Below are positions 7,454 through 42,139 of a stretch of 64,000 bases of DNA, in pieces. Origin of the DNA: Styela clava (taxonomy: Eukaryota); the NCBI RefSeq assembly GCF_964204865.1, contig NC_135250.1:27404001-27468000 (forward strand), written 5' to 3'. The first letter of the stretch is position 1, and each line of letters begins with the position of its first letter. The notes under the pieces are model-generated. The model searched no databases and had not been told where the DNA came from. It saw nothing but the letters and a program-made list of their open reading frames with translations. The position numbers and the translations under genes are program-made.

Positions 7454-8367
7454 ATGAGTACATTGGCTAGAAATGCAAAAGTGGACTTGGAAAAATTTAA
7501 TATAATCTCAATATGTGACCAAGGAAATGAAACAGATATGGAAGACGCAGCTTGGAAAATTTTCAGTGGAGTAAAAGATGCGTCAACTTTGGAAAGGCGG
7601 TCATATCGAGAGAGAATGAAAATTATCGCAACATCTCCAGAAAGTCGGTCACAAAAATACGCAGTCAGTGAGCTTAAATCTCATATTTCAAAAACATCTT
7701 CCGTGGGAAGTCGTATTTCGACAATGATTTTTGCTTACAAGGGTGGAACTCAAATTGTTGAAGAAGCGTTCACTTTTCAATCACTATCAGGAACTTTACT
7801 AGATGAAGGGGAGCAAGAACGGCATATCAGCAAACGCATTCAGCAAATACGTGAATCTACGGTGATCGTCGCGATTGAGGGAAAGAACAACTTACCGGAT
7901 GATTTGGCAAAGGTCTGTGTATAATAATAATATTCTATTGCTAAATACGCTCACAAACTGAAGTGAAAACCAAAAGTTTTCGATTGTTAATGTTGTATGT
8001 TCTTCATTGCGACAAATTAGTAGTACCATGTTTTAAATAGCTAGAATTAATCAACTAGGAAATTTGTTTAAATCACGGTTGTTGAATATGTTTTCGCAAT
8101 GTGATATTTTTTATTCAGATTTCTGTAAATTTGAGAGAGCGTTCAGACGTAGAAGGGTCAGTAGAAGAGCAGACAATAATCGGACCCACCGGGAAAAGCG
8201 CTCATGAGGTCAACTTCAATTTTAACCAAAAAAAAAACCTGAAAAGAAGTTTACTAAATTCTTTGGCAAGTTCTAGCGCGGCCTCATTGAATATAGTTGA
8301 GTTTTTAATCGATACTGGAGCGCTAAAATTTATATTATCTATTCTTGGCATTACATTATCAATTTAA
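7454..8367 (+). CDS. Lipase-like alpha/beta-hydrolase pseudoenzyme 'A' (copy 1), ~235 aa, hydrophobic C-terminal tail
   Basis: Exons 7454-7912 (ends DLAK|GT) and 8119-8367 (cag|ISVNLR). Shares EDAAWxI, IFA-xxxG and AK^IxxNxR..D motifs and the intron position with B and C; AYKGG replaces AHSHG. Confidence 0.85.
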
Positions 8368-9189
8368 AATTATTGATCATGTGGAATATCATCATAAATT
8401 TATATTTCAATTGTATTGAACTAAATTAAATTAATTTATTCGTAGATTTATTGCTCAACACAGATTACTGATATTTTGTTTATAAAAAGCGAGTAGAATA
8501 AAAACAACTACATACTAAGCTAAAATTTAGAACTTTGTTGCCTAAAAACTTGGATTTTATGTGCGGTGCTTTTATTTGGCTAGTATATATTGTTAATAAT
8601 TATATTGGAATATAAAATATTGTTAAAATTTTGTCTTTGTTCATCTTTGATCGTCAAGAAATATGTATTAAAAAACGATACATTCATAAACAAGGAAAAA
8701 AAGATTTTTGTTTGGAGGAGTGACTCTGAGCAACATATGAGGTTTTTGAAAGGAAACAATATCCTGGCCATCTAAAAATGTCCAAATATATAAAATAATC
8801 TTTATCAATTTTTTTTTGGGGGGAGGGGGGAAAAATGCAAGATTATCGGCAAAGGCATAAAGCCCTACACCGTGAGAAAATATGAAACGCTAAGAAAAAA
8901 TTGAATTTGTCGGATTTCCAAACTTTAATGAAATGCCTCGTCGTGTATCCGTGATTTGTTCGGTAAAGTTTTGCATTTTGTGAGGAAATTCTTTTAAAAA
9001 CTAGTCTCATTTCCACTAGTAGAAGTATTAGCCAAAATAGAAAATAGAACCACTGCATGTTGCAATCAACATTAAATTACAAAACATTCACCTAATAAAA
9101 TGATAATTTATTTCATAAAAGTAATCACAAATTGAACTCATACATTTTGAGAGCAGTTTATTTATGTACATTACAAAGCATAGACAAAA

Positions 9190-9870
9190 ACTTTTATTCA
9201 CAAATACCTACAGATCAAACCACAATCCTTTGGCATCGCCTAAAGTGAATTGACCTGATACAAAAGAATTGCTTAGACAATAACAAACGCGAAAGGGATA
9301 TGTTTCCTAATCATAGATTCTTCTCATATATCCAAGAATACATCTCATACGTGTAAGCCATTTTGTTTGTCATTCATATTAATTGCTCATAATAATTCTT
9401 TTACCATGTATAAATATATATATATATATCTTAAAAGAGTTATTACGCAACTCGATATTAGCATTTAGGTGAATTAAACTCACTTTGGACTGAGTTCAGT
9501 AGTAATATCTGACATTAAAAAACTCAAAAATTGTATGTAGTTCTGAATGCCATCAGAAATAAAGTAAAACTACAAAAAAAATGTTAAACTCATAAATTCT
9601 ATTATTTATTAGCGTGAAAAAATACAAGGTACCAAAATAATGCATTGGAATCACCAACTTGAGAATTTTAGACGCTATGACAAAACTGAATCAGTCTGAT
9701 CATTCCTAACTTTAGGGAAGTGCTTTTTTGTGTTTCTGTAATTTGTTCTGCTAAGTCTTGTTCAGCGTGGAAGAATTATATATGAAACAAACTATTTGTA
9801 ATACATCCAGTATATGTAGAATTCAAAAAGTAAAAAACTGTTTTACGTTTGTAATCCACATTTAATTATA
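9190..9870. repeat. ~650-bp local duplication, copy 1 (pairs with ~11050-11700)
   Basis: Shared strings cacaaatacctacaga, caataacaaacgcgaa, atctcatacgtgtaagcc, tgacaaaactgaat, aagtcttgttcag, aagtaaaaaactgttttac in the same order. Confidence 0.8.
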
Positions 9871-10454: not shown

Positions 10455-10660
10455 ATTGAACACGTAGTGGACATAGTAATTGTTTTGTTGTTATGTTGTT
10501 CTTAGTCTTGTTGTTGTTGTTGTTGTTCTTTGACACGTTTTGAAGAAATGGCTTTTCTCTTCGATGACTGAGAAATTTTCAGTGGTTAAAGATAGAATTT
10601 TTCTCCAGAAGGCTATTACTTTTTTTCTCTATGACGTCATCAAATCACGTGGCTCAACGT
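10455..10660. repeat. Dispersed repeat containing (GTT)n; other copies ~23270-23500 and ~56540-56745 (reverse)
   Basis: tgaacacg.agtggacata...gttgttgtt...gaaattttcagtggtt.aagat recurs. Confidence 0.6.
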
Positions 10661-11049
10661 GTCCATGTATTTGAGCGTAGCTCTCTTGTATTTATAACGT
10701 ATAATACGAACTGGAGAAACTGTAAGATTTTCTGCACCAGCATTAGGCACACCACCTTTGAAAATTGCGTGCAAGATACGCTGTATTAGTCTATTCCTCC
10801 CAAACTTTAAGTTCTAAATCAATCATTTGTTTGATTAGAACATATATTTTGTGTGCGGAAGTATTTTTTTTTTGCAGAACCTATATAATTAGTTCGAGAC
10901 GCTTTATGCGCCATAATATTGAGCTCTTGTGATTTGTCGCGGCAAATAAAGCCAACATGTTTAACGAAAATTTCAAATATAAAAACCATGTATTTCATGT
11001 TGTGATCAACGGTTATTTTTGTACGCTACTAAGCATAGTCATCATCTTT

Positions 11050-11700
11050 CACTCACAAATACCTACAGAACGAACCACAATCCTTTGTCATCGCGTAAAG
11101 GGAGTAGACCTAATTCAAAAGAATTGCCTAGACTAAACAATAACAAACGCGAACGTGATAAGTTTCCTTTTCAACGATTCGGCGCATATTCCCAAGAATC
11201 TATCTCATACGTGTAAGCCTTTTTGTTTTCTATTCATATTAATTGCTTCGTTCCCATTTTTGCATCTAGAATTATTTTACCATGTAACATAACCCACTTA
11301 TGAATATATATATATTCAAAGAGTTATTACTTAACTCAATATAAATATTTAGGTGAACAAAACTCACTCTGGACTGATATCAGCAGTAATGTATGACATG
11401 TCGAAAACTTGAAATATTTAGACAGTCTTATATGCCTACGAAAAATGTCAAATACATGAATTTGTCAAGTACATTACATGAAAGGTTTCAAACTAACGCA
11501 GAAAGCTTGCCACCTCGGAGAAAATTTAGCCCGCTCTGACAAAACTGAATTAATCTGATCTTTTCAAATTTCAGAAAAGTTCTCCTTCGTGTTTTCGTGA
11601 TTTGTTCTGCAAAGTCTTGTTCAGTGTGGAAGAATTAAATATCTCCTGTATATGTAGAATTCGGAAAAGTAAAAAACTGTTTTACATTTATGTTCAACAT
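11050..11700. repeat. ~650-bp local duplication, copy 2
   Basis: Collinear with 9190-9870. Confidence 0.8.
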
Positions 11701-12282
11701 TTATTAACAATAAAGTAAAAGTGGAACACTAATTAAAAATTTCATTAAATTCAAGTATAGACCGGACTGAGGCACTTTGGTTCAAATTACACTCCTAGAG
11801 TTAGGTACAATTCGGGAACCAAAAAATTAACCATAGTTCCTATTTTCCATTTTTTTCAAGTTCATATTCAAATTACGAAATAATTGATTTATTTGATAAA
11901 TCTTCCTGAATATTCTACTGCTTATGCCATGGACACTGAATCAATCATGTTTATTATTTTGAACCAAACAAGTGTTTTTGGCTACTGTGATCTTAAACCA
12001 AATTTTGTTTTCATACCAATTTAGAGACGTTTTTATCATTGTTCGTAATTTTATATTCAATTGTGAATTTACGTTAAATTCTTTTTTGCGCCCAAGTATG
12101 GAGCATAGGCTCTTTATCACTGTACTTTAAAACTTTATTTTAAACCAAATAAAACATTGGTAAGCTTATAGTCAAAAATTTAAGTTTCAATCACGTATGT
12201 CTGAGAAGAATTATTTGTCTTGATAATATTTTTTATGAGCAGGAAACCTGATTTTTGGTGGCAATCAGTTCGAATAATTTCT

Positions 12283-13414
12283 TCACGGCTTTTGTGAATA
12301 TATTGGATCACATATTTTGACCCATTCATCATTTTTGTGTTTTTTAATCCAGTGCATATTTTCGGGTTCGTTTTTTGTGGTCGTCTCTGTGCAACCACAC
12401 GGCACAGAATCGCCTTGCAGCCTCAACGTTTTCCAAATGAACCTCGTTATAGCACTATCGCTCGTATAATCAAACAGTAAATGTTTTGTTCCTTCAGTTG
12501 ATGCGGTTTTCAATGTTTTTAATTGAAAGAAGTTTTCAAGTCGGACCGATATTGACTCAGAAGAAGGTCTTGATTGGGACTCCACTTCTCCGTTATGAAA
12601 CTTTATTATTTCTGAGTTTTCACTGCTTCCTCCATACACCTTGTTGCCAAACTTAGATTTTACATCTTGTATAAATCTCAGGTTAAGACATATCTGCAAA
12701 GCAGGTCAATAAATATTTATTAAAAGTTGAATACATCGCAAACTAAATTATTGAACAGTTATTTTTTTGTTCATTTTAGAACAACTTGATTGACCGGATG
12801 CATCTAAGTGGTTCAACTACCTAAAAAAACAAAATGTTTTTGGATGAGTCAGCAAGAATTTGTTACTTCAATATTTTTGAATGTCAAAGATCATGTGCGC
12901 ATTTGTGTTTGAACATGGGAATATCGAAGAAACAAACCTTAGCATAGTCTTTTGGAATTGTGTCGATGCCACCAAAAGTGAAGACTGCTAAATTATCTTT
13001 AATTCGATTGAGTTTATTAGAAAAGTCCACTCCACTTTCATTCAGACGATGTTTGACAAAATAGTAATAAAGTGAATTTTCACCAATTGCCGTTCTAACA
13101 ATTTTAGCTCCATGACTGTGTGCAAAAATAATGCGAGTTATTCCATTTTTACAGTGAGGCATATGGAAAAGAATTTTGTGAATCTTTAACACAATTAACG
13201 TGGGTACTTCTGTCAAACTGCTTGCAGTGTCTACAATTGACTCAACGTCCCTGTAATGATTAATTCTTTTTCTTTCTGAAAAGTTGTGTAATTTTTTACA
13301 TATCTCCCACGCTGCATCTTCAACTTCATTGATATCGGCTCCAAAACCTCCAATTAAATATGCTTTGAATCCTTTCTGGCAAACTTCTATAACATTGTAA
13401 GTTTCATCAGCCAT
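12283..13414 (-). CDS. Lipase-like alpha/beta-hydrolase 'B' (copy 1), ~295 aa
   Basis: Exons 13414-12938 (LIGGFG, IIFAHSHGA, VFTFGG, KDYAK|GT) and 12693-12283 (cag|ICLNLRFIQD...KHLLFDY). Nucleophile-elbow Ser followed by candidate Asp and His in canonical order. Confidence 0.88.
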
Positions 13415-14379: not shown

Positions 14380-15202
14380 TTACATTTTAAGATAAACGTC
14401 TATTGTTTTGAGCACGTCTTCATTATTCACATACTCTCGCAAAACATGATTTGCTTTATCCCATGATGATTGACTTAAATCAGCAAAAACTGTCGAGGAA
14501 AAGTTTTTTTTTTCAGATTTTGTATCTTTACTTTTGGTCTTCGGAATTGTTTTCTTGTTGCACTTTGTCGCTCTCCCGACGAGCTTTTTTCCAAACGTTG
14601 CAATGGTATCATCCTCCAACCGAATATTTAAACAAGACTAATAAAAAAAATATGAATATGAATTAAATATGAAAAAATATGTTTTACACGGTCTCCTCTA
14701 TAACAATATAATGCTTCTTCTATCGTTTTACCTTAGCATAATCTTTAGGTATGTCTTGGATCCCCTCCAGCGAAAATATTGCTAATCGATCTCGGATCTG
14801 TTGAATTGCGTTCTCGATATTTTCTTCAGGTGTATTTTCCTTTATAAGAAACTTCCTTAAGGCCTCAGTTTTGCAAGCATCATATATGATCAGTGCACTG
14901 TGACTATGACCAAATAAAACATGAGTGATACCATTGCAGGTAAATTGTCTTTCATCCCATAACAATTTATGTATTTTTATGATGTCTGATTCTGAACATG
15001 CTTTCATTGACTTTGAGGCGTTTACAATCACACGAATATTTTCCTCGTGATTTTTCTTATTTCTATATGAAATATCATGCACGTACGAGTATATTGTCCA
15101 GCACGAATCTTTAAGTTTCGGTTCAATACCCGAATCTCCTTCTCCTCCATTATAACCCCCAACAAGTACAAACATTTGCCTTTTATCTATGCCGCTTGCC
15201 AT
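14380..15202 (-). CDS. Lipase-like alpha/beta-hydrolase 'C' (copy 1), ~242 aa
   Basis: ATG at 15202 (MASG, aligned with MAGS of copy 2). Exons 15202-14732 (LVGGYNG, LFGHSHSA, KDYAK|GT) and 14637-14380 (tag|SCLNIRLEDD...NHVLREY); 94-nt intron. Confidence 0.85.
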
Positions 15203-16700
15203 GAGTATTTTAAGTCCAAAAAATACTGCCAGTAATCGCTCCTGTTTTAAAAAGATCTTGAACACTCTTAGCTTGGTATCGTAAAAAGCGCTCGGTGTTC
15301 TGTATCCCCCTCGCGTGATCGCGCGCATTATGGCTGCCAATACCCTGCGAAAGTGAACCCTTTCAATGAATCGCTTGTAAACGAATGTAGGTTTGGATTG
15401 ATGGACAAAGAATTTCAATTATGTGATTATTTGAACCATTGGCATACTATTAAACCAAAGGCATACATTCGACATATTTACTATAAGAAGCGGAGGTTGT
15501 AAATTAAATACCGGTTTTAAATGCCATACTTCATGACCAGTCTTATCGCTGAAATAATCAATACAGGAATATTGTATTCTTTAAATCCAGTACAGTTGTT
15601 CTTAACACAATAGAGTGTATTTAACGGGTTTCTCAATAGTGTATCAAGCCTTCAACGCCCAGACAATAATATCAAGTTTCATCCGCCAACAAAAACAAGC
15701 CCTATAAATTAGGCTGTTGGTATATGCCACGATTTGGCCAAACAAGATATTTTAGAGTGAAGGTGTAATACTCAATCACGTACGAGTATATTGTCCTACA
15801 TGTATCTCTAGGTATTAGCTTTATATCCAACCATTCTTTGTAAAAATATTTGGCGTTTATTTATGCCGCTTGCCATGAGTCTCTTTAGACAAATAAGTAC
15901 TGCTAATCGCGCTTGTTTTAAAACTATTTCGAACACTCTTTGTTTGGTAACACAAAAATTTGCTGAGTGTACGCGTATATCGGGCTTTCTGGCTGCTTAT
16001 ACCTAACTAAAAAGGGCTTTCCAAATTAAGTGCAGCAATACAACTCTAACCTGGTACACATACTATATTCAGGAAGTGCGCCATCTTGGTGCACACACTT
16101 CTGGAGCTCCCTAAATAGCACCCTTTCCACGAATCGCTTGTAAATGAATGTAGGTTCGATTGATGGACAAAGAATTTCAATTACGTGATTATTTGCACAA
16201 AAACGTGCTGTTTTTGTTCGAGTACAATTGTTACTAATACAATCGAGTGTATTAGAAGGATTTCTCAGTGTATCAGGTTTCATTACGTTCGGACAGTACT
16301 ACTTATTCGGTTTATTCAAGCTTTATAAATTTTGCTGTGCGTATATGCCACGATGGACCTAACAAGATTTCTGGAGTGAAGGTGTAATACCGTACGAGAA
16401 TTTTGGGCAACATATAGCATCAGGACTTGGTTTCTTATGCGATCATTCTTTGCTCCTATTATAAGCCCCAACAAGTTAAAATTTTAGGTCGCTATCTATT
16501 CCACTTGCATTAGGTTTTCAGGCCAAATAGATAGGCTACTGCTCGTAATCCTTCTTGCTCCAAAAATTTCTCGAATACTCTTTACTTGTCAACATAATAA
16601 TGCACTGAGGACCCCCCCTCCCCTCCGCCAAAACTATATATTCTGTTTATTCAAGCCCTATAAATTCGGCTGTATGAATATGCAACGGCTGACTGATGAA
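15080..16700 (-). repeat. Tandem triplication of the gene C 5' end plus upstream region; two degenerate 5' fragments at ~15780-15960 and ~16390-16600
   Basis: cgtacgag...tatgccgcttgccatgagt...gaacactctt recurs at ~15083, ~15780 and (more decayed) ~16392; aatcgcttgtaaa.gaatgtaggtt.gattgatggacaaagaatttcaatta at ~15369 and ~16132. Confidence 0.75.
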
Positions 16701-19364: not shown

Positions 19365-21784
19365 ATGATGAAACTTGCTGAGAAAAGTCGTTATATTTTC
19401 AAAGCATTTGCATTACTTCTTTCTTCGACATTAATTTACAAATCTTCGCCAGCAGCTGGTGTGAGTTCCACAGAGAGACCCGGTGAGTGTACTGAACAAT
19501 GTTATTTGAGATTGGACTAGCTAATTTCCATTCTATGACGAATTATATTATCCTGTAATATGGTATAGTATAGGGCAGGGTGGTCCAAGGTTGTTGGCTC
19601 CGCGGGCCACAAATTTATTTTTTTTATTGTCCGAGGGCCACAATAGTGCCTATAGAATAGGTAAACTGTGCAATACAAAACAAACACTTTAATTGTGCAA
19701 ACACATAAGTATCAGACATAGCCATCCCAGGCTAATAGAATCCGCATTCGATTTTTAGTTTTCTAAAATGCCTATATTATTAGCATATATTCCCGACCAA
19801 AAAGATAGAAAGCCAGAGAATAATTTAGACTGCCAAGCACATCATTCAACTTTGCTATTTGCCTTGGCTAGCCATAACACTGGTCAATTCAGTGACATTA
19901 GAAATGAAAGAATATGTCAAAAGATTTTTCTGAATAATTTTATTACGAGACAACACGAAATGTGATTTATTGATTACTTTCCGAATGTGACGCGGGCCAC
20001 AGGTAATGCAGCGGTGGGCCACATGTGACACGCGGGCCTGGGTTTGGACCACCCTGGTATGGGGTATAGTCATATACAGTGGTGAGATTCATCAGGTTCG
20101 CACCGGTTCTATAGAACCGCCTCGCGGAATTTTATGAGATCAGCGAACCGGTTAGCATTACTGGTTACTGTCAATGTTTTTTTTTGTAACAGAACCGGCT
20201 GAAAAGTTTAACTTTTGTGAAGTAACCGGCTGACAAAAAATTTGAACCCCACCACTGGTCATATAGTATAGATTGACCCGTGATGTATTTGGATATATTG
20301 TTCCATTCCATATTACAGTAACACAAGAAAAGTACAACAGTTGGAGACAGAAACTAAAGCAATGCTCAACGCCAGTGGTGTATTCAACATCAACAGTTGG
20401 TACGTTGACGAGTATACCAACAAACAGGACTATATTTCAAAAATTCAAGAGATATTTTAGGAAAAATTGAGACTTCCTACGTGAACGACAGAAGCTGTTT
20501 TAGACATGAAATTTTTGCATGTACAGATATTGTGACCCCCTTATACCTTTCAAATATTATGAAACAAATTGAATAATACTTGTATCTCTGTTTATATTGA
20601 GTAAAATGTAAATGTGATTATGTTGAGTTTTGTCAATGATTCCAATTTATGGGTTTTATTGTTATTCCCGCAAGTTCCTAGTTTGGCGTGTCATCACCCA
20701 ACTGGTTCTTAATTCAAATGAAAATGATATGAATCTTCGATGATACTAAAAATCAATTTCTATTCCACTAAACATAAACTTATTATAGCTTATTTAAGTT
20801 CTGTTCGACACACGGAGTAAATGCGTATACAGTGCTGATAGAATTTCAACGGACAACTGACATGCTCAGTGCTATATAAAAGATTACTAGAGAACTTACA
20901 GTACACAGTACAGTACACGAGAGTTTAGTTTCGACTATTTCCTGTAAACTAGTTAAAAGATATAAATAATTGCAGCGATAGGTATTCACAATAAATATAT
21001 ATTCATCTTGAATATTCATTGTTCGCTTTTTTGTCCGATTGTTTGGGTCAGATATTTTTGAAATGTGTGTGCGTGTATTGAACAAAGTATGTGGCTTATA
21101 TTCAATTTTTCACATATTATTATAGAGGGCTATGATGGATTTAAAGTTGATGATAAAACGGGACCATACAGCAGCAAATACGCTTCAACTAGCACAGGCG
21201 AGTTCGTTAATAAGATGTGATCAAAAATGTTTTCTCACACATATACAATTATCAACAGAAAAAAGTTCTCAACCAGTCCAAAAGCTTTAGTATTCTGACA
21301 TGGTTACCTTTTAACTCCAATTGAGGTCCCTAATTAGTTCGAAAGTCTCTTATTGTTCTTTTTGTGTTTGTTATGTGTTGCAAGTTTTTATTGGTATTCT
21401 TCAAGTTAATATATACAGCATAATATTATTTTGCATAATAATTATTTGTAATATGTGAACCCGGACAATAATGGTGATTAGTCAGAAACTATTTGTATTA
21501 ATGGTTAATGGTAAGAAATAGTGAAATGTGTATTTTAATATCAATACTGTTTTCATTGCATTTACGCCATGGTACTGACGAATGCAACTCTAAATTTAGA
21601 TATCCAAAATGGACGTTATACTGCGTGCAACTTTCCGTACGATACCTGCTTCAAAACTTGGAGTGGCACCAGTCGCAAAAGATCGCCAACAAATCAATGT
21701 ATATGCGACAATTTCTCTCCTTGCCCTTACAACAATAAAAAAATGCAGGATGTTGTTTCGAAGATCAGCAAGATGTTTCCGTGA
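19365..21784 (+). CDS. Orphan secreted protein, ~151 aa, 6 Cys
   Basis: Exons 19365-19482 (MMKLAEKSRYIFKAFALLLSSTLIYKSSPAAG, signal-like), 20319-20399, 21126-21197 (AG|GCGAGT donor) and 21600-21784. All junctions are phase 1 and give one open frame; TATAAA at 19335. Confidence 0.65.
19576..20056. mobile_element. hAT-type MITE (reverse-orientation copy at 39024-39497)
   Basis: TIR cagggtggtccaa/ttggaccaccctg; 8-bp TSD gtataggg/gtatgggg. Confidence 0.9.
20077..20257. mobile_element. Short hAT-type MITE
   Basis: TIR cagtggtg/caccactg; perfect 8-bp TSD gtcatata; internal gaaccg repeats. Confidence 0.9.
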
Positions 21785-22885
21785 TTTATATTTGAATATG
21801 AATGAAAATTGATGTTTTTCTCATTTCAATCGCATTACGGTGTTGGGTAGGACTATTAAACATGACCTAGGCGATTTATTGAATTTATGAGATCAGTGTG
21901 AGCTGCCATTCTACCATATATTTAAACCAAAACAATATTTTGGAAGTTAAAATGATAATATATATGGTTACAGTACATATTAAGCATTAGAGAACAAAAC
22001 ATATGATACACAATTCATTTATCCGCAGTGCAGTGCACACAGTGCATTTATCTACCGAACGCAATCCCGAAGCGATACAAAGGTATGTAATGGAAAAGTA
22101 TGGAAGAAGTGGGTCATTTTTAGTTTTAAAGTCTGAAGTCTATCCGCGAAATTGAAAAACAAAACCGATTTCACAAAACATCTAAATCTGCGGTTGTTGT
22201 GTAAAATAAATTGTGTTTAAGTTTTGTAGTTTTTGGATCAATTTTGTGATCAAAATGGTAATTGAACACGAAAAACTTCTTAGATACATCTAATGCAGGT
22301 CATTATTCTTTAAACTTAAGTTAAACTTAAGTTCGTGTACTTTACTTTATACGGCTAAAATCGTGATTCATAAAGTAGAGGCCTAAGTTTGTCGCCCGAT
22401 TTGTTCCTGTATTATATAAGTTGTCGGCAAACTGTGGCCCGTCGTGCATTTTTTGCGGGCCTCCAATAAATTTCAATAACAGGTAGTGATACACCGAAAA
22501 GTTTTATAAATACAACATAACATATAATTATTTTAACAAATGGTTTGTGTGCATATATCAAACGATCATGCATTACGTTCATTCCATCTACAGTACCGGC
22601 ATCACAATTATTCTGTTTTGTTGATTCCTGCGCAATTCATACGGCTATTATATACGTCTTGCCCTCCGAATAAGATTCTTTACAATCATGTACGAATATG
22701 TAATTGCCACTGCTTAAATAAACTATCTTCCATTCTGAGTAAGTTACCTATCCTTCACACGTGTCCTCTACAATCTTTGCGAATGTGAGAATCACAGATA
22801 TCTATTAGTTTTTTTTTTTTTTCTTCAACAATGATTACAGCTCATTTAACAAAAGAAAAATATTTCAGCCTCATAGTTCCAACTA

Positions 22886-24223
22886 TTAAATGTATTGGCT
22901 GAACACCAATGCAGATAAAAAGAAGAAAAGCATTGCTACTTTGATTCCCATCTTTTTTGAGGTTGCTCCATTGCATAACTCTAAACATAACTAGATTTAA
23001 CATCAAAAATATTTTCAATATAAATAATTCATCATAAGTTTTTTCAACAAATCTTCACCTGTGTTACAGTAACATGTAGTTGTGAAAGTATCGCTATTTA
23101 CATCACCTACGGTGCTGCATCCATCTGATCCACTGCTGCACAATCGCCCAACTTGGAGAACGCCTGAAAAGTAAAAATAGGCATGTACGGTGGAATATCT
23201 CAGATGTAGGCTTATTTAGTTGTCGTGAACTGTATATTCAAAATATCTAATGTTATTTAATATTGATTACTGAACACGGAGTGGACATATTGATCGTTTT
23301 GTTAATATGTTGTTGTTTTTGTTGTTGTTAGACGTTTTCTCCCTATCGTTATGAATAATTGTTTTTCTCATTAACTACTGAATAATTTGCTTTGAAATTT
23401 TCAGTGGTTGAAGATTGTATGTTTTGATTGGAGGCATTAATTTGTATTTGTATCAAAAATTTCTACAGGACCAAAGAGATTCGTTTTTTTGTGCGCTATG
23501 ACGTTATTAAAAATTAAAATCTCCTCTCCTCCACCTTCGCTTTACCGATCGTGAAGTCCTACAAAGTCGTGAACATTGTGAGTACCGATAGTTTATTGTA
23601 AAAAACTGTATTTTATTTACCATAGATTTGATCGTTTGTACCCACCATTCAAAGTTGCTTCTACTTTCGTACAGGTCGGTGTAGTCCCATTACATTCTTT
23701 AGTTTCTGTTGATGAGTCGACGGTGTCACACACAAGGCATGTGTAACATCTGATGGCAGATGCTGTGAAATAAATCATAGAAATATGAATTATAGTAAAT
23801 ACTAATTAGTCAAGAATTATTTACTCAAAGTGGCGAAAGTCAAAAGTTCATTGAAGATATTTATTTACAATCTGACTCAACCTTAAAATTTTTGAACTGG
23901 ATATCTGGCGCTCTATGAGTTGCACCAATAAATACACAGCTTGGAAAACTTTGCATGAATGTAATTTTATTTTATCGTCACGGTGTTTATAAATTATATT
24001 TTTAAAGAAGGAATAGATATTGAAGAGAAATTTGCATCATCAAAACTATCATACAATAAATGAGTATGTTTGCTCTCATATATTCTATTTTCTGAATCCA
24101 AAATACAATTTTAAAATTACTTCAGATGTACTGCCCTACTGTACTAAGAATAATTATTGATCGTACGAATATACCTGTGGCAAAAATCAGCATCAAAGCC
24201 GCATAATATTTCAAGACCTTCAT
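22886..24223 (-). CDS. Ly6/uPAR three-finger protein, predicted GPI-anchored, 121 aa
   Basis: Exons 24223-24175, 23762-23646, 23163-23059, 22980-22886. Signal peptide, IRCYTCLVC...CYCNTELCN with 10 Cys, and a hydrophobic C-terminal GPI-type signal. Confidence 0.92.
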
Positions 24224-26881
24224 TTGAAACAGAGAATTGCTAAATCGTAATAATTTTCCGGTATACTGATCTATGTATTAAAACCTGCCACGATTCAACC
24301 CGTGGTTTTTGTATGACCTGTCATTCCATAAAGTATCTCTTTTGAACCGTTTAATAACAATAGGAAATAAATTATGTGTGGCCAAAGGTAGTATTATATG
24401 TTTAAATTACTAATACATGCTTGGGACGTGCTTAAAAAGTCACAATATTTCTGACAAAAGAAAAATAATATTATCGTTTGGTCATTGGGAAAGCTGATAC
24501 ACTGTTAAGAAACACGTTAAATAAGCTAGAAAAATAATTGTGCTCAATATTTCGATTCTGCTACGTGTAGTGAATTAATCGACCACAGTACATTACATTT
24601 CAACCAGTACCTTGTCTTATTCTTTTTTTTTCATTTTGCAAATACTGAGTTTAACCGCCCATGTGTCGGTGTTGCAGACGTAGACAATAGAAATTCACGC
24701 TTGGAGGGTTGCGAATAATAGAACGTTTGTACATATTTGGAAAACAATAGTCGATTTTACCTAATATATATTTAAAACTTGTACATCTAATTGTATTCAT
24801 TTGATAACCCTGTGTAAGTAAAATAAATTCGCATATGTAAATACTTTGAGATATTATGTGATAGTCCGACACACTCAAGCAATATGAATATGTCAATAAC
24901 AAAAAATGAAACTATGGATATAGATTCACGTAATATTTACAAAAAAAATATATTCATATGAGCCTTATGCCAGATATGATTAAATAAAAAAGACATGTTT
25001 GTATTGATTAAAGGCAGTGGAACTTCATATGTATCAGCTATGTAATATGTAAAATCAGAATAAAGCACAAAAATTGTTTAATGAATTTTTTCCAAATTTT
25101 TAATCGTTTTTTAATCGCTCAGGAAAAATAGTTTAACCAAAACCAGACTGGTCTGCAATCATAATGCATTCTAAATACAGTTCGCTCTTTTAACGGCTTG
25201 GAATATACAAATATGTCAAAGTCAGTCTTAAAATTATTCCTAATACATCTTGGTTTTTCTAAGAAATCTATAAAAAAAAAAAATTAGCGAATGTTGGACA
25301 ATAATGTTACTGTTGGAAATACAACATGGACATATCAACGTCAACTTATTTTTGATACATTTCATTATCTTAGATTCATAGTTTAGACTAGATTTTGATT
25401 TAAATAAGAGTTATATAACTGTTTAACAAGCAAGGCGTTATTCAACAATTTTGATTGAGTCACATTTAAAAGTCTCATTTAATGGTATGGCAAAGGTTCA
25501 AATCTGCACGTTTTGGTGCAAATAAATCCCATAATAAAAATTCTTTGCCCATCATTTGAATCTACATAAATTCTTAAGAGATGCATTGAGAGGGTGCGTT
25601 TCATTTGAGCAGCTAGAAGGCGCAATGTCACGCGATGGCGATACCCAAAACCAGTGTCATTGTTACGTTTCCAACTAAAGAGAATTAGAGATATTTTCAG
25701 AACAAGCCCGATCATGAGCAATTCTTATTTAGGCAATTCAGAGGTATAAGTACCGATATGAAGGTAACTAATTTTGTTCGTCTATATTACATCAAGTTGT
25801 GTAAAGGGAATAAAACCTCTGGACAGGAGATATATTCTGTTGGCTAACACAGACAGCCTTCGAACGCGTAGTAAAACTAGATATTGGAAAATCGGAATAA
25901 CAGTATGGCCTCACCCTAAACACATACTACCTTATTTGGCCTATTTTGAGTATATGTCAGGCTCCATCGACTTAGATGAAAGACAAAAAAAATTTTTGTC
26001 GAGGATAATAATGAGAGAAAAGTTAGATCGACTATAAATATAATTCTGATTTCATCAATCAAACTTGTCACGAAAAAGACGTTTTCGACGCATGAAGCGT
26101 CCCAAAATGTTTTAAAATTACAAAGGGTATTTATCGACACTATATATTGTTTTGTACCTCAAAGATGTATTAAATGAAGTGAACAATTACTTATTAAAAT
26201 ACAAGAAACCTGGATAAGATATATTGAGATCTGATTTCTTAATAATATTGAAATTATAAATGGACTTCATGGACACCCTGCACATTGTGCTGCTTCATAT
26301 TGTACCCTGTTTTAAATGGAATTCTTTGATCAGTAGTTCGAATCGTACATTTATATACATAATAAGCATTGAAAAGCTGCGGTTTAGTTGAGTACAGCTA
26401 GGGGGCCCTATGTCACGCGATTGTGTAACCCGAAACCGGACGCTTTATTTCATTTTTCAGCAAAAAAGTGTTTGATTTATTTTCGAAACAAGTTCGATCA
26501 CGAGCAGAGCTTATTCGGCTTAATATGCGCATGACAAACGCGACATGGATAAAGGACGAATGTTTAGTAATATCGGTGGATATGATGAAATTAATGATTT
26601 TTCTTTTAATTACATATTTGCTTATTTTAAGTCATAGCCGTTCAAAAACAAAAACGTTTAATTATATACCATACACCAGGTGGATATAATTAGTTACGCT
26701 TCAATCTTGCAAATCGAGTGTTTTCGAATGTTTGTTTCAAATAGAATAACAGCGCCGAATAAGATAGGCGGTTTAAATATCCTACGACTACTTGAGCACT
26801 CGATACTCGATTTGTTCCTCTTGGTATACAAGGGCAATGAAAATTAAAGTGCTATATTTTAATATTTACAGAGCGTAAAGT

Positions 26882-27743
26882 ATGAGTAAATTGGCTGGAA
26901 ATGCAGAAGTGGACTTGGAAAAATTTAATATAATCTCAATATGTGACCATGAATATGAAACAGATATGGAGGACGTAGCTTGGAAAATTTTCAGTGGAGT
27001 AAAAGACGCATCAAGGTCTGAAAGACGGAATTATCGTGATAGAATGAAATTTATTACAACATCTTCAGAATTTCAGTCCCAAGAAGACGCAGTCAGTGAG
27101 CTTAAATCTCTTATTTCAAACAATTCTTCTCTGGAAGGTCATATTTCGACAATGATTCTTGCCTACAAAGATGGAACTCAAATTGTTGAAGAAACCTTCA
27201 CGTTTCAACCATTATCAGACCTTCTACGTGAATCAATAATGATCGTGGCGATTGATGAAACTTCAAACTTATCGGATGATTTGGCCAAGGTTTGTATTTA
27301 TTTTTTTCCTATAAAATAAGAGTCGAGATTACAGCGAGAATCAAGTGTTTTGACAGTTTATTTTGTTTCTTCCTCATTGGGGTAAATTAAGAGCGCATGT
27401 CCCAACTATAGTAGAAAGTAACAAATATAAGTTTATGATATCTTTATTGGATTGGTGATTAATATTACCCATTATTATGCGTTGTTTTTCATAGATATCT
27501 GTAAATCTTCGGGCGCAGTCAGACATAACAAGAATGCAGGAAGAGTACAAAGTAATTGGAGACAGAGGAAAACAAGCTCTCGAAGTCAGCTTCGGTGTAA
27601 AAGAAGAAAAACCATGGACACATAACGTGCTATCTTCAATATCAAGTTCAAGCACCACTTCGTTAAACGTGATTTCCTTTATGCTTAAAACTGGAGCTTC
27701 AGCCTTTATATTATCTCTTCTAGGCATTAAACTGCCTATTTAA
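26882..27743 (+). CDS. Lipase-like pseudoenzyme 'A' (copy 2), ~218 aa
   Basis: Exons 26882-27289 and 27495-27743. AYKDG at the elbow position; in-frame 17-codon deletion relative to copy 1; same hydrophobic tail. Confidence 0.85.
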
Positions 27744-31840: not shown

Positions 31841-32040
31841 TATCAATCAGTTATTTTTCTGTTCATTTTAGAACAACTTGGTTGACCGGATGCAAGGACG
31901 GGTGCATCTAGGAGTTTTGAATAACTAACAACAAAAAAACATGTTTTTGGATGAGTCAGCTAGAATTTGTTACTCCAATATTTTTAAATGTCAAAGATCA
32001 TGTGCAAATTTCTGTTTAAAAATGAGAATATAGAACAAAC

Positions 32041-32517
32041 CTTAGCATATCCTTTTGGAATTGTGTCGATACCACCAAGAGTAAAAACTGCTAAATTGTC
32101 TTTAATTTGCTCGAGTTTTTTGGTAAAATCCACTCCATTTTCAGGTCGACAATATTTGATGAAATACTGATGAAGTGAGTTTTTCTCAAGTGCAGTTCTA
32201 ACAATTTTAGCTCCATGGCTGTGGGCAAAAATAATGCGTGTTATTCCATTTTTACAGTGGGGCATACAAAAGAGAATTTTTTGAATCTTGTAAACAATGG
32301 TTGTCGGTACTTCTGTTGAATTTTTTGCAGTGTCTACTATTGATTCAACGTCGCTGTAATGACCGATTCTCTTCCCTTCTGAAAAGTTGTATAACTGTTT
32401 GCATATCTCCCACGCTGCGACTTCTACTTCATTGATATCGGCTCCGATATCACCAACTAAATATGCTTTGAGTCCCGTCTGACAAACTTGCTTCACGTTG
32501 TCAGTTTCAACAGCCAA
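32041..32517 (-). pseudogene. Truncated extra copy of gene B exon 1 (B'')
   Basis: 159 open codons with AHSHG and GYAK|GT, but TTG instead of ATG with an in-frame stop just upstream; no exon 2 found beyond the intronic transposon. Confidence 0.75.
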
Positions 32518-33108: not shown

Positions 33109-34457
33109 TCAGAGATTCGTTTTGTAGAAGTATTTTGGGGCGCGAGCGTACGACCATGTAATATTGTGTCTTTTGATGTTCCATTCCTTATTTTCAAGTT
33201 TCTTCTTGGTAGTCGTCCCTGAGCATCCACATTGCACAGAATTGCTCTCCAACATTAAAGTTTGTAAAATTTTCCCCATTACAGCCGCGTCTTTTGTATA
33301 TTCAAATAGTACATGTTTTGTTCCTTCAGTGGATGCTCTTTTTAATGTTTTCAACCGACAGAAGTTTTTAAGTTGATCCAATTTTGACTCAGTTGTTGAA
33401 GATTCCACTTCGCCGTTGTGAAACTTTATTATTTCTGAGTTTTGGCTGCTTTCTCCATAAATAATGTTGCCAAACTCAGAATTTATATCTTGTTTAAGCC
33501 GCATGTTGAGACATATCTGCAAAGTAGATCAGAAACTATTTATTAAAAGTTGAATACATCGCAAACAACATTATACAAGGTGTCCAACAGGTATTACCCA
33601 ATTTTATAGTAATGACAATTGTAAGTTTTAATAAGTTTTGGTGTGTGATAAATGAGAACTATAACGTCCAACATGTGTAACATCAATTTCAATACGGATT
33701 GATTACAAATCATTTTACAATTAAAAAAAAATTCCTTTGATTATAAATACTTTACCATGGGCCGAAACTTATAGGACACCCTGTATTAATCAGTTATTTT
33801 TCTGTTCATTTTAGAATAACTTTGTTGACCGGATGCAAACACGGGTGCATCTAAGAGTTTTGAATAACTATTAAAATAACATGTTTTTAGATGAGTCAGC
33901 AAGAATTGGTTACTCGAATATTTTTGAATGTCAAAGATCATGTGCACATTTGTGTTTGAACATAGGAAAATCGAACAAACCTTAGCATATTCTTTTGGAA
34001 TTGTGTCGATGCCACCAAGAGTAAAAACTGCTAAATTGTCTTTAATTTGCTTGAGTTTTTTAGAAAAGTCCACTCCATTTGCATTTTGACGAGATTCAAT
34101 GAAATAATCAAGAAGTGACTTTTCATCAAGTGCCTTTCTAACAATTTTAGCTCCATGGCTGTGGGCAAAAATAATACGAGTTATTCCATCATTACAGTGT
34201 GGCATATGGAAGAGAATTTTGTGAATCTCGGAAACAATGGTTTTCGGTTTGTCTGACAAACTTCTTGCAGTGTTCACAATTGACTCAACGTCCCTGTAAT
34301 GAATAATTCTCTTTCTTTCTGAAAAGTTGTATAACTGTTTGCATATCTCCCACGCTCCAGCTTCCACTTCATTGATATCGGCTCCGAAACCTCCAATTAA
34401 ATAAGCTTCAAATCCTTTCTGACAAACTTGTTTTACATTGTTAATTTCATCAACCAT
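33109..34457 (-). CDS. Lipase-like alpha/beta-hydrolase 'B' (copy 2), ~294 aa
   Basis: Exons 34457-33981 and 33516-33109; AHSHG, CLNMRLKQD, KHVLFEY. Confidence 0.88.
33576..33783. mobile_element. Tc1/mariner-type MITE in the intron of B copy 2
   Basis: TA-caaggtgtcc...ggacaccctg-TA; absent from the homologous intron of B copy 1. Confidence 0.75.
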
Positions 34458-35287: not shown

Positions 35288-36429
35288 TCATTTAAGATAT
35301 GCATCTATAGTTTCGAGCACTTTCTCGTGATTTACATACTTTCGTAAAATATGATTTTCTTTACTGCACGATGCAGAACAGGACAGATTTGACAAAAACA
35401 TTTGTTTCTGTGACTGTACAAATTGTTCAGGTTGTGGTTTTGATATGATTGTCTTGTTGCTGTCTGCATATTTCCCAAAAAGCGTTTTGACTGATTTTGC
35501 AATACCATCATTATCAAATTCAATATTCCAACACACCTGTTAAAAATTATATGTTAATCATTATATATAAATGTGAAATTGTATTTAGAAATAACTAAAA
35601 AGCTGTTTAATTATTTTATACATTATTTGAATAACAAGAGTTCAGTTTAGCGATTCCTAATTTAAAAATCTTCAATTCATATTTAATATTTCCTAATCAT
35701 GGCTATAGCCGTTGGTTTTGGAACTGCTTTTTTAAATACCCAATTTAATTTTAAAAGATAATCAGAATTTACTGTTTGATTTATCGTGTTCTGCATAATA
35801 TTAATTTAATTTAGTTCAAAATGAAGCTGTTTTGGATGAGATAAGATGCGCGCAATTCAACAGCATAGATTGAAATTGTTAATTACCACACGATATCAAA
35901 TATATCTTTCAATGAAATGTAGCAGTTGTAATTTGTAATATACTTTATTTGACTGCGATACCTTTGCGTAATCCCCAGGTATGTCTTGGATTCCTCCCAG
36001 GCTAAATATTGCGAGTCGACTTCGAATCGTTTTAATTATGATCGGTATTTCTCTTTCTGGTGTACGTTTCTTTATAAGAAAGTTCCACAGGGCCTCATCT
36101 TTAAGAGCTTCATATATGACTAGTGCGCCGTGGCTATGACCAAGCAAAACATGAGTTATACCATCAAAAGATTCATCATTGTATAACATTTCATGCAATG
36201 CCGTGATGTCTGCTTCTGAATTAGCTTTGAGATATGAACTTGAGTCGTTAACAATTACGCAGATATTTGGCATGTGATTGGCTCTACTCCTAGTGCTAAT
36301 ATCATAAACATACGAGTATATAGTCCAACATGCATCCTCAAGGAATAATTTTCTTTCCGGTATTTTTTCGCCCCCATTGTAGCCACCAACTAGTAAAAAT
36401 TTTGGCTTCCTAGCTACGCTGCCCGCCAT
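35288..36429 (-). CDS. Lipase-like alpha/beta-hydrolase 'C' (copy 2), ~238 aa
   Basis: Exons 36429-35962 (LVGGYNG, LLGHSHGA, FSLGG, GDYAK|GT) and 35536-35288 (VCWNIEFDND...NHILRKY). Confidence 0.88.
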
Positions 36430-39023: not shown

Positions 39024-39497
39024 CAGGGTGGTCCAAACCCAGGCCCGCGGGCCACATGTGGCCCGCCGCCTCTTTATCTGTGGCCCGCGTCACATTCGGA
39101 GTGTAACAAAAAAATCGCATTTCGTGTTGTTTCGTTATAAAATTAATCAGAAAAATTTCTTGACATATTGCTATCACTAATGTCACTGAATTAAATAGTG
39201 TTACGGCTAGCTGAGGAAATTAGAGAAGTTGAATGATGTGCTTGGCAGTCTAAATTGTTATCTGGCTTTCTAACTTCTTTGTCGGGAATATATGCAAATA
39301 ATATAGGCAACATAGAACACTAAAAACAAATGCGGATTCTATTAGCCTAGAATGGCTATGCCTGATAACTAAGTGTTTGCACAATGAAGGTTTTGTTTTG
39401 TATTGCACTGTTTACCTATTCCTGGCACTATTGTGGCCCGCGAACAATGCAAAAATAATTTTGTGGCCCGTGGAGCCGACAACCTCGGACCACCCTA
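39024..39497. mobile_element. hAT-type MITE, same family as 19576-20056
   Basis: TIR cagggtggtcc; perfect 8-bp TSD atttaagt. Confidence 0.9.
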
Positions 39498-40081
39498 ATT
39501 TAAGTATTTTTGTGTTTATTGATATTCGATTTTAGCATGAAATATTTTTCAAGAACTTTGATATTTGAAAATTTATTACATCACTTGGTACTATTTTCTC
39601 ATATGTTTATATATATGCGTATTAAAAAATGCATGCTTTAAAACAAATGTAAACAACGAGTGTCTGTTTTAGTTTAACGATTTTACGGTAACCTTATATA
39701 TTAAATTGAACCATCGACAACCTATGCAATTTTAAACGAACAATATTGTAGGCTTAGTCGTTTTTAAATGAATAAATGTAATTTGTTAATTTAAATAAAC
39801 TCATTTTATAAATTTATTTGAGAATATTATTCCGCAAGTAACGTAGGAAATGTCATCACAACAGTAAATGTAATACTATAAAAAAACATGTTTTCTCAGT
39901 ATATTACATCAATTTATCATTAATGTAATATACCAAGGAATCATTAATTATACAATTAGAAACAACAATAATTAACAATATTAATAATAAGTGAACACGA
40001 ATTAACAACTGCTAATTAATATTGTTTATCACGTTGAGGTTTAATTTTGAATTTGGCATTGGTGGGTGGGATATTATATGT

Positions 40082-41551
40082 TCATTTCTTCTCACAAAGA
40101 TATTTCAATTTTTTCGAGCATCTTTCGTCATTCAGTAGAAAATAACTATCAGAACCAGTTTTCACACAATCTTGGTCATTCTCTCTACCGCCATCTGGTT
40201 GTCCAAAAAGCCATGGAATTGTTCGAGGATTTGCGACAGTTCCATTTGACCAGACAAACGTGTTTTCTTGGTTTATATCGTCCAGACCAATCCACACTGG
40301 AAATTTGCCAGACTTGATCAATGGCACAAGTTGACTGCAATGTAATTACTACATCATTAGTAAATTTTATTATTAAATAGAAACTCGAAAGCTTTGTGTC
40401 GATTAAAAAAATTTCCATGAAGAATGTCCTATTTAAAAAATAAAAATCTAATATAAACTGAAAGAGTATATAAATACATTATATGCCTACTGAATTAGCC
40501 GAAGTATGGGCCACAAAATCATGACAGTTGAACAAATGTACTCCTGTAGTATGCAAACCAAGATCGCGGACACCAGAACGTGGTATGCGTGCCAGGTTAG
40601 AGTTAGGCGGTAATTTCAGGTACAAATACTACGAGAGTCACTTGGCTAGTGTCCGAACTCGTGATAGAACTGAAATCAGAAAATGGGAATAAAATTATGG
40701 TCGAACCCAAACCTGGTACACATACTACGTTCCGGTGTTGTCATCTTGGTTCGCATATTACATGAGTACCGAACAAAACAGATACAAATGATATTACTAT
40801 TTTACTTGTGAATTGTGTTATCACGAATCCCCTCTGATGACAGCATTGCCCCCTCCTTTATACAGTTTAATTTAGCAGTTGTGTAATCCACTTTATCATC
40901 GAATATTTTATAGTAGAATTTGTTACTTGCTTTGTACCAAGTCTTTAGTTGGTCCATGTTGTTGAGTCTGTATATTACACTTTCCATTTCTGTTAAACGA
41001 GACTATCATTGAATATACAATTATGCTTGAACTCGTATATACTGCAGTTGCAAAAGAAATTCTTAATTAAACCATAACAGACAGACTTAGTTTAAAACGC
41101 AAAAAAATGGAAATTAAAAGTCCCAGCTGCACGCAAAATATAATCTCACCTTTTTGCAGTCCCACTATGAGGTCGTGTTCTTCAGACCGCTGTTTCAATA
41201 TAGAATTAAACTTTGCTTCGAATTGACTTTGAAGCCCTATAATTAATCATATAATATGTTGCGTTACCTAGCATAATAAAAAAACACTCCCTTTTTAAAA
41301 AGTATATATTTACGTTTTTCATATTCCGTGTATCTTTTTTCATCATCACTTTCAGGAAGTTTTGTAAATCGGTCGCAAGTAATTTGAAAAGTTTGTCTTT
41401 TCAAATAATCCTTCAATACTTTCTTGGTCTTTGCTGTTTCGTCACATTTATCTCCGTCGCATTCGGATTTGAAACTACAATTAAATTCCTCGCTCAAACA
41501 TGTGGTCAATATTGACCACACAACAACAAGAATTTTCAAAAATCCCATCAT
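40082..41551 (-). CDS. Secreted C-type lectin (QPD, galactose-type) with Cys-rich N-terminus and coiled-coil-like neck, ~253 aa
   Basis: Exons 41551-41314, 41236-41150, 40989-40806, 40334-40082. Signal peptide, WIGL, FVW, QPD, LND..C....YLCE. Confidence 0.9.
40539..40770. mobile_element. Palindromic MITE, long form; related copies ~41755-41960, 25750-25960, 43370-43585, 57990-58210, 16040-16110
   Basis: gtactc...gagtac termini; inverted aacctggtacacatactac arms. Confidence 0.7.
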
Positions 41552-42139
41552 TTTTTATCAACTAATGATCCGTTACTAATAGTCCTATTGAGGAAAAATA
41601 AATTTTAATCATGAACAATGCATTTTCTCTTATAATTGTTTCTATTCATTCTAAGAATCAGTTATTAATGGATGTTTTTTTTTATTTCACAAATGTCCCT
41701 GAACAAGTCAACAAGTGTAATTGGTTGATATAATTTCGGAAAAGAAAGACAGTTGTACTCCCGAAGTATGTGAACCAATATGGCGGACACCGAAACGTAG
41801 TATGTGTACCAGGTTAGGGTTAGGCAATCATTTTATTTCAATTTTTCTTATTTTTGTTCTATTACGGAGTTCATGGACTAGACAAGTGACTCCCGTAGTA
41901 CCTGAAATTATGGCCAAAGTCTAACATGGCACACATCCTACATTCCGGTGTCCGCCACAGATTTTGCATTGGATATTCGACTATTCACTTATCGATCAGC
42001 TAATCAATTCCATAAATGCATGCTGCTAATGCGCGTAAGTTCACTATCGTTCACTATTTTACTAATATGTGATAAAAGTAAATTTAAGACTGCCTTTGAC
42101 AAATTTATATACATCATCGTCCAAATACACGAACTGTAC

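What the first reader, a model, noticed from the sequence alone, without database searches (positions are those of the whole stretch)
7454..8367. Paralog A lacks the catalytic serine and has gained a conserved hydrophobic C-terminal tail
Seen: IFAYKGGTQIV (copy 2: ILAYKDGTQIV) aligns with B's IFAHSHGAKIV, so the nucleophile is Lys, and the N-terminal GG motif is also gone. Both copies nevertheless keep open frames, intact splice sites and identical 82-codon second exons ending in a Ser-rich linker plus SLN(I/V)xxF(L/M)xxTGAxxFILS(I/L)LGIxLxI. Inference: a selectively maintained pseudoenzyme acting as a membrane or lipid-droplet anchor, lipid sensor, decoy or inhibitor for B/C. The amphipathic tail could instead be a membrane-active element.
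Basis: partly seen in the sequence, partly recalled or inferred. Interest (0 to 1): 0.7.

Follow-up and report, generated by a model that had tools for sequence, protein, structure and literature searches.

The report
Dead hydrolase paralog in sea squirt
A sea squirt keeps two spliced copies of a lipase-like gene that have lost the serine and histidine such enzymes need; their greasy end is the fold's ordinary last helix made more water-repellent, not a newly gained anchor, so the protein likely works as a non-catalytic docking partner.

Summary
The genes are real. In Styela clava, two A-B-C blocks of an unannotated small alpha/beta-hydrolase family each hold one paralogue A with Lys at the nucleophile elbow and no oxyanion GG loop. 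Both copies are spliced in RNA-like contigs and under purifying selection (omega 0.41, p=1e-4), as strongly as the catalytically intact B and C.

The tail was not gained. It aligns with the family's His-x4-Tyr-x9-Ile-x3-Leu last helix and, in a pLDDT-85 model, occupies the terminal-helix position of minimal lipases and cutinases. It is more hydrophobic than in all 12 relatives compared, but its uncharged run is only 12-13 residues and its hydrophobic moment is low, so a transmembrane or amphipathic anchor is weakly supported.

The best reading is a folded pseudoenzyme whose former catalytic face became a hydrophobic docking patch; the partner is unknown. Two possible frameshift alleles of A1 suggest it is dispensable in some animals. 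The same domain, also without Ser and His, is fused to IRE1-like kinases elsewhere in this genome, a lead towards signalling or defence.

The parts
7454..7912 (+). A1 coding exon 1 (153 codons), N-terminal part of the alpha/beta-hydrolase fold
   Evidence: RefSeq XP_039258607.2, 235 aa
7739..7741 (+). Lys96 at the nucleophile elbow, where B and C have Ser
   Evidence: alignments; strand 90-95 then helix 98-105 in the model
7913..8118 (+). A1 phase-0 intron, GT..AG, at the family-wide position after A-K/Q
   Evidence: skipped by contigs in 3 of 3 RNA-like runs and 0 of 1 DNA-like run; GT at the same position in 6 of 6 other family loci examined
8119..8367 (+). A1 coding exon 2 (82 codons plus stop): strand carrying the conserved Asp, hairpin, low-confidence Ser-rich linker, last helices
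8146..8148 (+). Asp163, likely the triad acid; retained, Glu in another allele
   Evidence: invariant column in the six exon-2 sequences; D163E allele
8287..8289 (+). Leu210, in the column where the 10 non-A, non-kinase relatives have His (likely the catalytic His)
8293..8364 (+). Hydrophobic C-terminal segment (residues 212-235): the ancestral last helices of the fold with polar-to-apolar changes at 213, 217 and others
12283..13414 (-). Paralogue B1 (exons 13414-12938 and 12693-12283), AHSHG elbow, Asp and His present
14380..15196 (-). Paralogue C1 (exons 15196-14732 and 14637-14380), GHSHS elbow, His present
26882..27743 (+). Paralogue A2 (exons 26882-27289 and 27495-27743), AYKDG elbow, Leu at the His column, in-frame loss of 17 codons in exon 1
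   Evidence: RefSeq XP_039258548.2
32035..32517 (-). B3, copy of B exon 1 with no second exon found
33109..34457 (-). Paralogue B2 (exons 34457-33981 and 33516-33109)
35288..36429 (-). Paralogue C2 (exons 36429-35962 and 35536-35288)

Best explanation
Paralogue A is a spliced, selection-maintained member of a small alpha/beta-hydrolase family that has lost the elbow Ser, the His and the GG loop, and it likely works as a folded, non-catalytic protein whose former active-site face has become a hydrophobic docking patch. Shown by sequence: the residue losses, splicing, omega below 1, and homology of the tail to the family's last helix. Predicted: the fold, with that helix packed in the domain. 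Inferred: Leu210, Val213, Phe215 and Ile217 form an exposed greasy patch at the old catalytic cleft that binds a partner reversibly. My split for the partner is about 45% a protein (B, C or the kinase-fused form of the domain), 35% a lipid surface or lipid ligand, and 20% no partner, the residues only plugging the dead site. A defence or signalling setting is inferred from tandem expansion, fast evolution and the kinase fusions.
For: Elbow and GG loss. His loss in a fixed register (Ile225 column is Ile in 11 of 12 relatives, Leu229 column Leu in 11 of 12). A profile holding no A sequence aligns A1 residues 14-232, tail included, in one piece (hhalign 98.3%, E 1.2e-14). A last-helix matrix from 10 non-A members scores A1 212-229 best of 218 windows; shuffled tails reach the score in 2 of 5000 (A1) and 13 of 5000 (A1+A2 jointly). 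Model pLDDT 85, pTM 0.84, helices 212-219 and 221-228 at about 87-91. Structure matches run to model residue 230-232 at or near the ends of minimal hydrolases: 6nkc Z 10.1, rmsd 3.7, 151 aligned, chain 1-172 of 172; 1uxo Z 10.1; 4x90 Z 10.8; 1isp Z 10.0. ML omega: A1-A2 0.41 (p 1e-4), tail 0.15 (32 codons, p 5e-4), B 0.36, C 0.39. 6 of the 10 listed A1 allele differences are synonymous (p 0.012). Splice joints.
Against: The confident model was built from an alignment that already placed the tail on the family's last helix, so it is not independent. The single-sequence model (pLDDT 51) did not put the tail in the fold: matches ended near residue 160-175. For A2 alone, the tail was not among the three best windows (382 of 5000 shuffles reached it) and hhalign stopped at residue 169; hmmsearch also left both tails unaligned. 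Foldseek's top rows were RadA/RecA chains (TM 0.32, rmsd about 9), not hydrolases. I could not read model coordinates, so surface exposure of the patch is inferred from column polarity. No activity is shown for B or C. Two possible A1 frameshift alleles, one removing the whole tail, argue against the patch being essential.
Confidence: 0.62

Rival explanations
1. The ancestral last helix has been repurposed as a membrane or lipid-droplet anchor: it leaves the fold or lies in the bilayer and tethers A.
For: The helix is more hydrophobic than in all 12 relatives (Kyte-Doolittle mean 1.78 in both copies against -1.45 to 0.39). It lies at the extreme C-terminus and is the most constrained part (omega 0.15). 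The single-sequence model left it out of the fold. A has the lowest flat insertion-energy sums (3.9 and 2.7 against 4.5-10.1 in 8 non-A relatives).
Against: The uncharged run is only 12-13 residues; Asp218 and Lys223 lie inside the A1 segment; the insertion sums stay positive (crude recalled scale, no true transmembrane control); 19-residue hydropathy peaks of 1.6-1.7 also occur in three relatives; the hydrophobic moment is low; the family's core register is kept.
Confidence: 0.15
2. A is a formerly useful gene now decaying or optional; the hydrophobic changes only fill the dead site and stabilise the fold.
For: One extra A in a 10-A run behind 8227 in the only covering contig of run X2 gives 205 aa without the tail. 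Four extra bases behind 7535 in X6 and X7 (one sample) give a stop after 73 aa. The older RefSeq model starts at Met29, just behind that site. A2 lost 17 codons and has the longer branch (0.45-0.53 against 0.08).
Against: Omega matches that of B and C; both frames stayed open against 0 of 3000 neutral runs; allele differences lean synonymous; A2 is intact in both RefSeq versions. Each frameshift rests on single contigs and may be an assembly error.
Confidence: 0.15
3. A is still a catalyst with other chemistry, using Lys96 and Asp163.
For: Lys at the elbow and the Asp are kept in both copies. Some alpha/beta-hydrolases work without Ser (PMC11878206, section 2.7).
Against: The Ser-less lyases described there keep a D/E-His dyad, whereas A has no His. 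The GG loop is gone and Asp163 varies to Glu.
Confidence: 0.05

Closest known systems
Minimal alpha/beta-hydrolases (Lip_vut1 6nkc, YdeN 1uxo, Bacillus subtilis lipase A 1isp, cutinases 5x88/1bs9) and lysosomal phospholipase A2 (4x90)
   Same: Predicted fold, strand-elbow-helix, terminal helix after the His loop; Z 10-10.8, rmsd 3.2-4.1, 145-162 residues aligned.
   Different: Only 6-15% identity; A lacks Ser, His and the GG loop; no sequence-level hit in the PDB and no Pfam hit at a curated cut-off.
ABHD5/CGI-58
   Same: Hydrolase fold with the elbow Ser replaced (Asn153), acting as a lipase co-activator (passages of PMC9694394; search listing).
   Different: ABHD5 keeps Asp and His and binds lipid droplets through an N-terminal Trp-rich region. 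A has lost His. No sequence relationship was found; this is an analogy only.
Plant EDS1/PAD4/SAG101 lipase-like domains
   Same: Lipase-like paralogues in immunity, one (SAG101) with a degenerate pocket, pairing through a hydrophobic helix (abstract and passages of bioRxiv 10.1101/2021.12.15.472806).
   Different: They carry an EP domain, which A lacks. No heterodimer is shown here. Analogy, not membership.
Arb2 domain (Clr3 5ikk, Hda1 5j8j) and chlamydial DUF687
   Same: Triad-less hydrolase folds (PMC11878206). Arb2 matches the A model at Z 8.6-8.9; a cluster with 16% DUF687 members is among B1's Atlas look-alikes (score 0.92).
   Different: Arb2 is part of a deacetylase; DUF687 has six transmembrane helices. 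Neither family scored in Pfam scans.
Styela clava IRE1-like kinase fusions XP_039265916.1 (P0012) and XP_039263528.1 (P0016, with SH3)
   Same: Same domain (E 2e-23 and 2e-8 among 1.84 billion proteins), same intron position, Ser and His also lost (AHTGG, AYGDG).
   Different: Fused behind a kinase whose best PDB hits are IRE1 (P0012); their last helix stays polar (KD -0.38, -0.17). A shared origin of the catalytic loss is neither shown nor rejected (p-AU 0.28-0.32).

Membership tests
alpha/beta-hydrolase fold | Central mainly parallel sheet with strand-elbow-helix and terminal helix | tested here: met
   Predicted model. By titles and my own knowledge nearly all of the top 50 of 48,161 chains are of this fold, best Z 10.8. 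Foldseek ranking was unclear.
Active serine hydrolase | Nucleophile (Ser, Cys or Asp) at the elbow | tested here: not met
   Lys96 in both copies; no Ser or Thr at 94-98
Active serine hydrolase | Catalytic His before the last helix | tested here: not met
   Leu in both A copies where the 10 non-kinase relatives have His
Active serine hydrolase | Triad acid after a late strand | tested here: met
   Asp163 invariant in six exon-2 sequences; its role as the triad acid is inferred
Functional pseudoenzyme | Expressed and under purifying selection | tested here: met
   Splice joints; omega 0.41; caveat: possible frameshift alleles of A1
Functional pseudoenzyme | No measurable catalysis and a binding function | not testable with these tools
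   Needs biochemistry
Tail-anchored membrane protein | One C-terminal hydrophobic helix of about 17-22 residues free of the fold (criterion recalled) | tested here: inconclusive
   Hydropathy peak 1.7-1.8 but uncharged run 12-13, homology to a core helix, positive flat insertion sums; no dedicated predictor on hand
EDS1 family | Lipase-like domain fused to an EP domain | tested here: not met
   The 235-aa protein ends with the hydrolase domain; no Pfam EP hit
DUF687 / DUF900 / DUF676 | Pfam score at the curated cut-off | tested here: not met
   None for A, B or C; three relatives give sub-threshold DUF900/DUF676 hits, E 0.007-0.13

The most novel reading that the evidence does not exclude
The dead hydrolase domain is a reusable signalling module in ascidian defence. 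It replaces the RNase behind IRE1-like kinases and also exists alone as A, which tunes or decoys those kinases or the active B/C enzymes through its hydrophobic last helix: an animal counterpart of plant SAG101/EDS1-type lipase-like regulators, with allelic loss as in other immune genes.
Probability: 0.15. Interest if true: 0.7.

Novelty: new member of a known kind. Interest (0 to 1): 0.36.

Why it matters
Dead alpha/beta-hydrolases are a known kind (ABHD5, SAG101, Arb2, DUF687), so a further one is modest news. Its value is that the family has no Pfam model and was not found in print, and that one genome holds intact, dead and kinase-fused dead forms side by side. That makes a compact test of how an enzyme turns into a binding module. 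If A regulates IRE1-like kinase fusions, it would show a lipase-like signalling module in a chordate.

Tried and rejected
Complex prediction of A1 with B1: no verdict (score 0.00 in both runs, alignments not used, partner fold uncertain); it is not counted for or against. No run holding the stretch is on record as RNA, and three same-species runs of another study held next to none of its words; not counted. Contig depths were not used to rank expression. PDB sequence searches with two alignments gave 0 hits and 1 chance hit. Pfam and NCBIfam gave nothing at cut-off for the domain. Atlas search with A1 gave only scores of 0.80 or less. B1's Atlas look-alikes are bacterial hypothetical clusters (0.94-0.96), but the profile search named no bacterial relative (16 hits: 7 named Styela records among those looked up or seen before, 8 unnamed relatives, and P0021, dropped as a repeat-rich false hit); gene transfer from bacteria is therefore not claimed, and a scan of prokaryote genomes was not run. 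Viral fold search gave only weak matches (best E 8e-4, TM 0.40 or less). Trees did not place A: its stem is long (1.6-2.0) and the deep forks are open; the join with unnamed P0015 (86/73) is a long-branch pairing. A tail captured from another locus was rejected: exon 2 matches only A1 and A2 in the genome (2 candidates scored). A third A copy was not found. No family member was seen in 10 kb on either side of the window. Rfam scan: 0 hits. A sliding-window amphipathicity and signal-peptide check was not obtained, so cytosolic location is read from the N-terminal sequence by eye.

Full report
Setting. The window is AT-rich eukaryotic DNA. RefSeq names on matching proteins identify the ascidian Styela clava. 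It holds two blocks of one gene family: A1(+) B1(-) C1(-) and A2(+) B3(-) B2(-) C2(-). All have a phase-0 intron after A-K; GT follows the same position in 6 of 6 other family loci examined on contigs C3, C10 and C18.

Observation. A1 splices to 235 aa (matching XP_039258607.2) and A2 to 218 aa. AYKGG and AYKDG align with B's AHSHG, and the GG loop is replaced. Second exons are 82 codons in both copies but 49% identical, and C2's is 82 codons as well. Contigs skip the A1 intron in 3 of 3 RNA-like runs (2 studies) and not in the DNA-like run. They skip the A2 intron in 1 of 3 RNA-like runs. The RNA label is the tool's guess, but exact GT..AG skipping indicates transcripts.

Selection. Nei-Gojobori gave omega 0.51 (bootstrap 0.35-0.72) over 218 codons. 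A pairwise codon model gave 0.41 (p 1e-4), with exon 1 at 0.48, exon 2 at 0.29 and the last 32 codons at 0.15; B1-B2 gave 0.36 and C1-C2 0.39. Exon-2 synonymous distance is near saturation (about 1.0), so the tail figure is rough. Neutral simulation left both frames open in 0 of 3000 runs at each of three distances. Of the 10 coding differences listed for A1 (the table was cut), 6 are synonymous (p 0.012).

Against this, single contigs show two A1 frameshifts. One extra A behind 8227 appears in run X2 and gives 205 aa with no tail. Four extra bases behind 7535 appear in X6 and give a stop after 73 aa; the same insertion appears in X7 of the same sample, laid on A2 but carrying A1-type letters. 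The older RefSeq model starts at Met29, directly behind that site. These may be real null alleles or assembly errors.

Family and fold. A profile search of 1.84 billion representatives gave 16 hits at E up to 0.001: Styela proteins, eight unnamed relatives, and one repeat protein that I dropped. No Pfam family reaches its cut-off for the domain. AlphaFold2 on a 14-sequence alignment gave pLDDT 85 and pTM 0.84. The wide structure search returned alpha/beta-hydrolases almost throughout the top 50 (assigned from titles and my own knowledge), best Z 10.8, rmsd 4.1, 162 aligned. A second look favoured cutinases and Bacillus lipase A. Foldseek alone ranked RadA chains first with poor TM-scores.

The tail is ancestral. 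Ten non-A, non-kinase relatives end the domain with a His-x4-Tyr-x9-Ile-x3-Leu pattern (His in all 10; single exceptions at the other columns). A reads Leu-x4-Phe-x9-Ile-x3-Leu in the same register. The His on the loop before the last helix is where this fold carries its catalytic His (PMC11878206, section 2.7, read in full), so A has lost two of three triad residues and keeps only Asp163. A profile without A sequences aligns A1 14-232 in one piece. An ungapped matrix finds A1 212-229 as the best of 218 windows; shuffles reach it in 2 of 5000. In the model, the helices 212-219 and 221-228 align to the ends of minimal hydrolases. Results against: A2 alone is not significant (382 of 5000; hhalign ends at 169), hmmsearch left both tails out, the single-sequence model did not pack the tail, and the good model inherits my alignment. 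A2's tail is homologous to A1's by direct alignment.

What did change. The helix is more hydrophobic than in all 12 relatives compared (1.78 against at most 0.39; recalled Kyte-Doolittle scale). The clearest polar-to-apolar columns are 210, 213 and 217, next to the old His, with further gains at 215, 224, 226, 228, 233 and 235. The uncharged run is 12-13 residues, the hydrophobic moment is low, and flat insertion sums stay positive. This fits a greasy patch on a folded domain better than a transmembrane or amphipathic anchor, though a marginal anchor is not excluded.

Mechanism. I infer a soluble dead enzyme whose former catalytic face docks on a hydrophobic partner, most likely a protein, otherwise a lipid surface. 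No partner is shown. The same domain without Ser and His stands behind kinases in XP_039265916.1 and XP_039263528.1, the latter with an SH3 domain. The first kinase's 16 PDB hits at E up to 1e-20 are all IRE1, and no RNase domain was found. An earlier, unchecked scan note describes IRE1-derived kinases with swappable end modules in this genome (e1-9597002). Trees neither join nor separate A and these fusions.

Comparison and novelty. A works like known dead hydrolases such as ABHD5 (passages), SAG101 (abstract and passages), and Arb2 and DUF687 (passages and section), but belongs to none of them. Searches for the locus and family found nothing relevant: 0 papers, and unrelated listings. Passages of PMC3710099 mention tunicate expansions of solo KEN domains only. 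No supplements were read; tables of the Styela genome papers could list these loci. Verdict: a real, maintained pseudoenzyme in an unannotated family; the 'gained anchor' is a misreading of the ancestral last helix. Interest 0.36.

Noticed in passing
G000 C18 about 4,653,000 (L009, L010) and C10 about 8,101,000 (L031, L032): The same hydrolase domain without Ser and His is fused behind protein kinases (IRE1-like in P0012, no RNase domain found), one with a C-terminal SH3.
   Followed up: partly
G000 C3 18.49-18.72 Mb (L017-L030): A second tandem cluster of the family, about five copies with CHSNG elbows and His kept, three coding exons.
   Followed up: partly
window 7535 and 8227: Possible frameshift alleles of A1 in public runs.
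   Followed up: partly
window 7454-7912 against 26882-27289: Synonymous distance is 0.29 in exon 1 but about 1.0 in exon 2, and the introns barely align (128 matches against 114 +/- 4 shuffled): possible gene conversion of exon 1.
   Followed up: partly
window 32035-32517 (-): B3 has exon 1 only, no start Met at the usual place, and a one-base insertion in one low-depth contig; RefSeq fuses it with B2.
   Followed up: partly
window 15841-16508 (-): Decayed C-like fragment upstream of C1.
   Followed up: no
window 19577-25917 and 39024-45031: Large inverted duplication (about 77-86% identity) bracketing the second A-B-C block.
   Followed up: no
window 9143-9864 and 10996-11703; 10570-10690: A non-coding 700-bp direct duplicate (71%) and a very high-copy short element between A1 and B1.
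   Followed up: no
window 14732-15196 (-): C1 has HSHS instead of HSHG at the elbow, which may impair it.
   Followed up: no
window 26870: The A2 contig of run X5 has 14 unaligned 5' bases at the upstream acceptor: an upstream exon or a spliced leader.
   Followed up: no
P0005/P0001 (B1): Nearest Atlas clusters are bacterial hypothetical proteins (0.94-0.96) and a chlamydial DUF687-containing cluster; the family's origin is open.
   Followed up: partly
L034:6439-7125 (-): A 229-codon open frame downstream of the window, not a family member.
   Followed up: no
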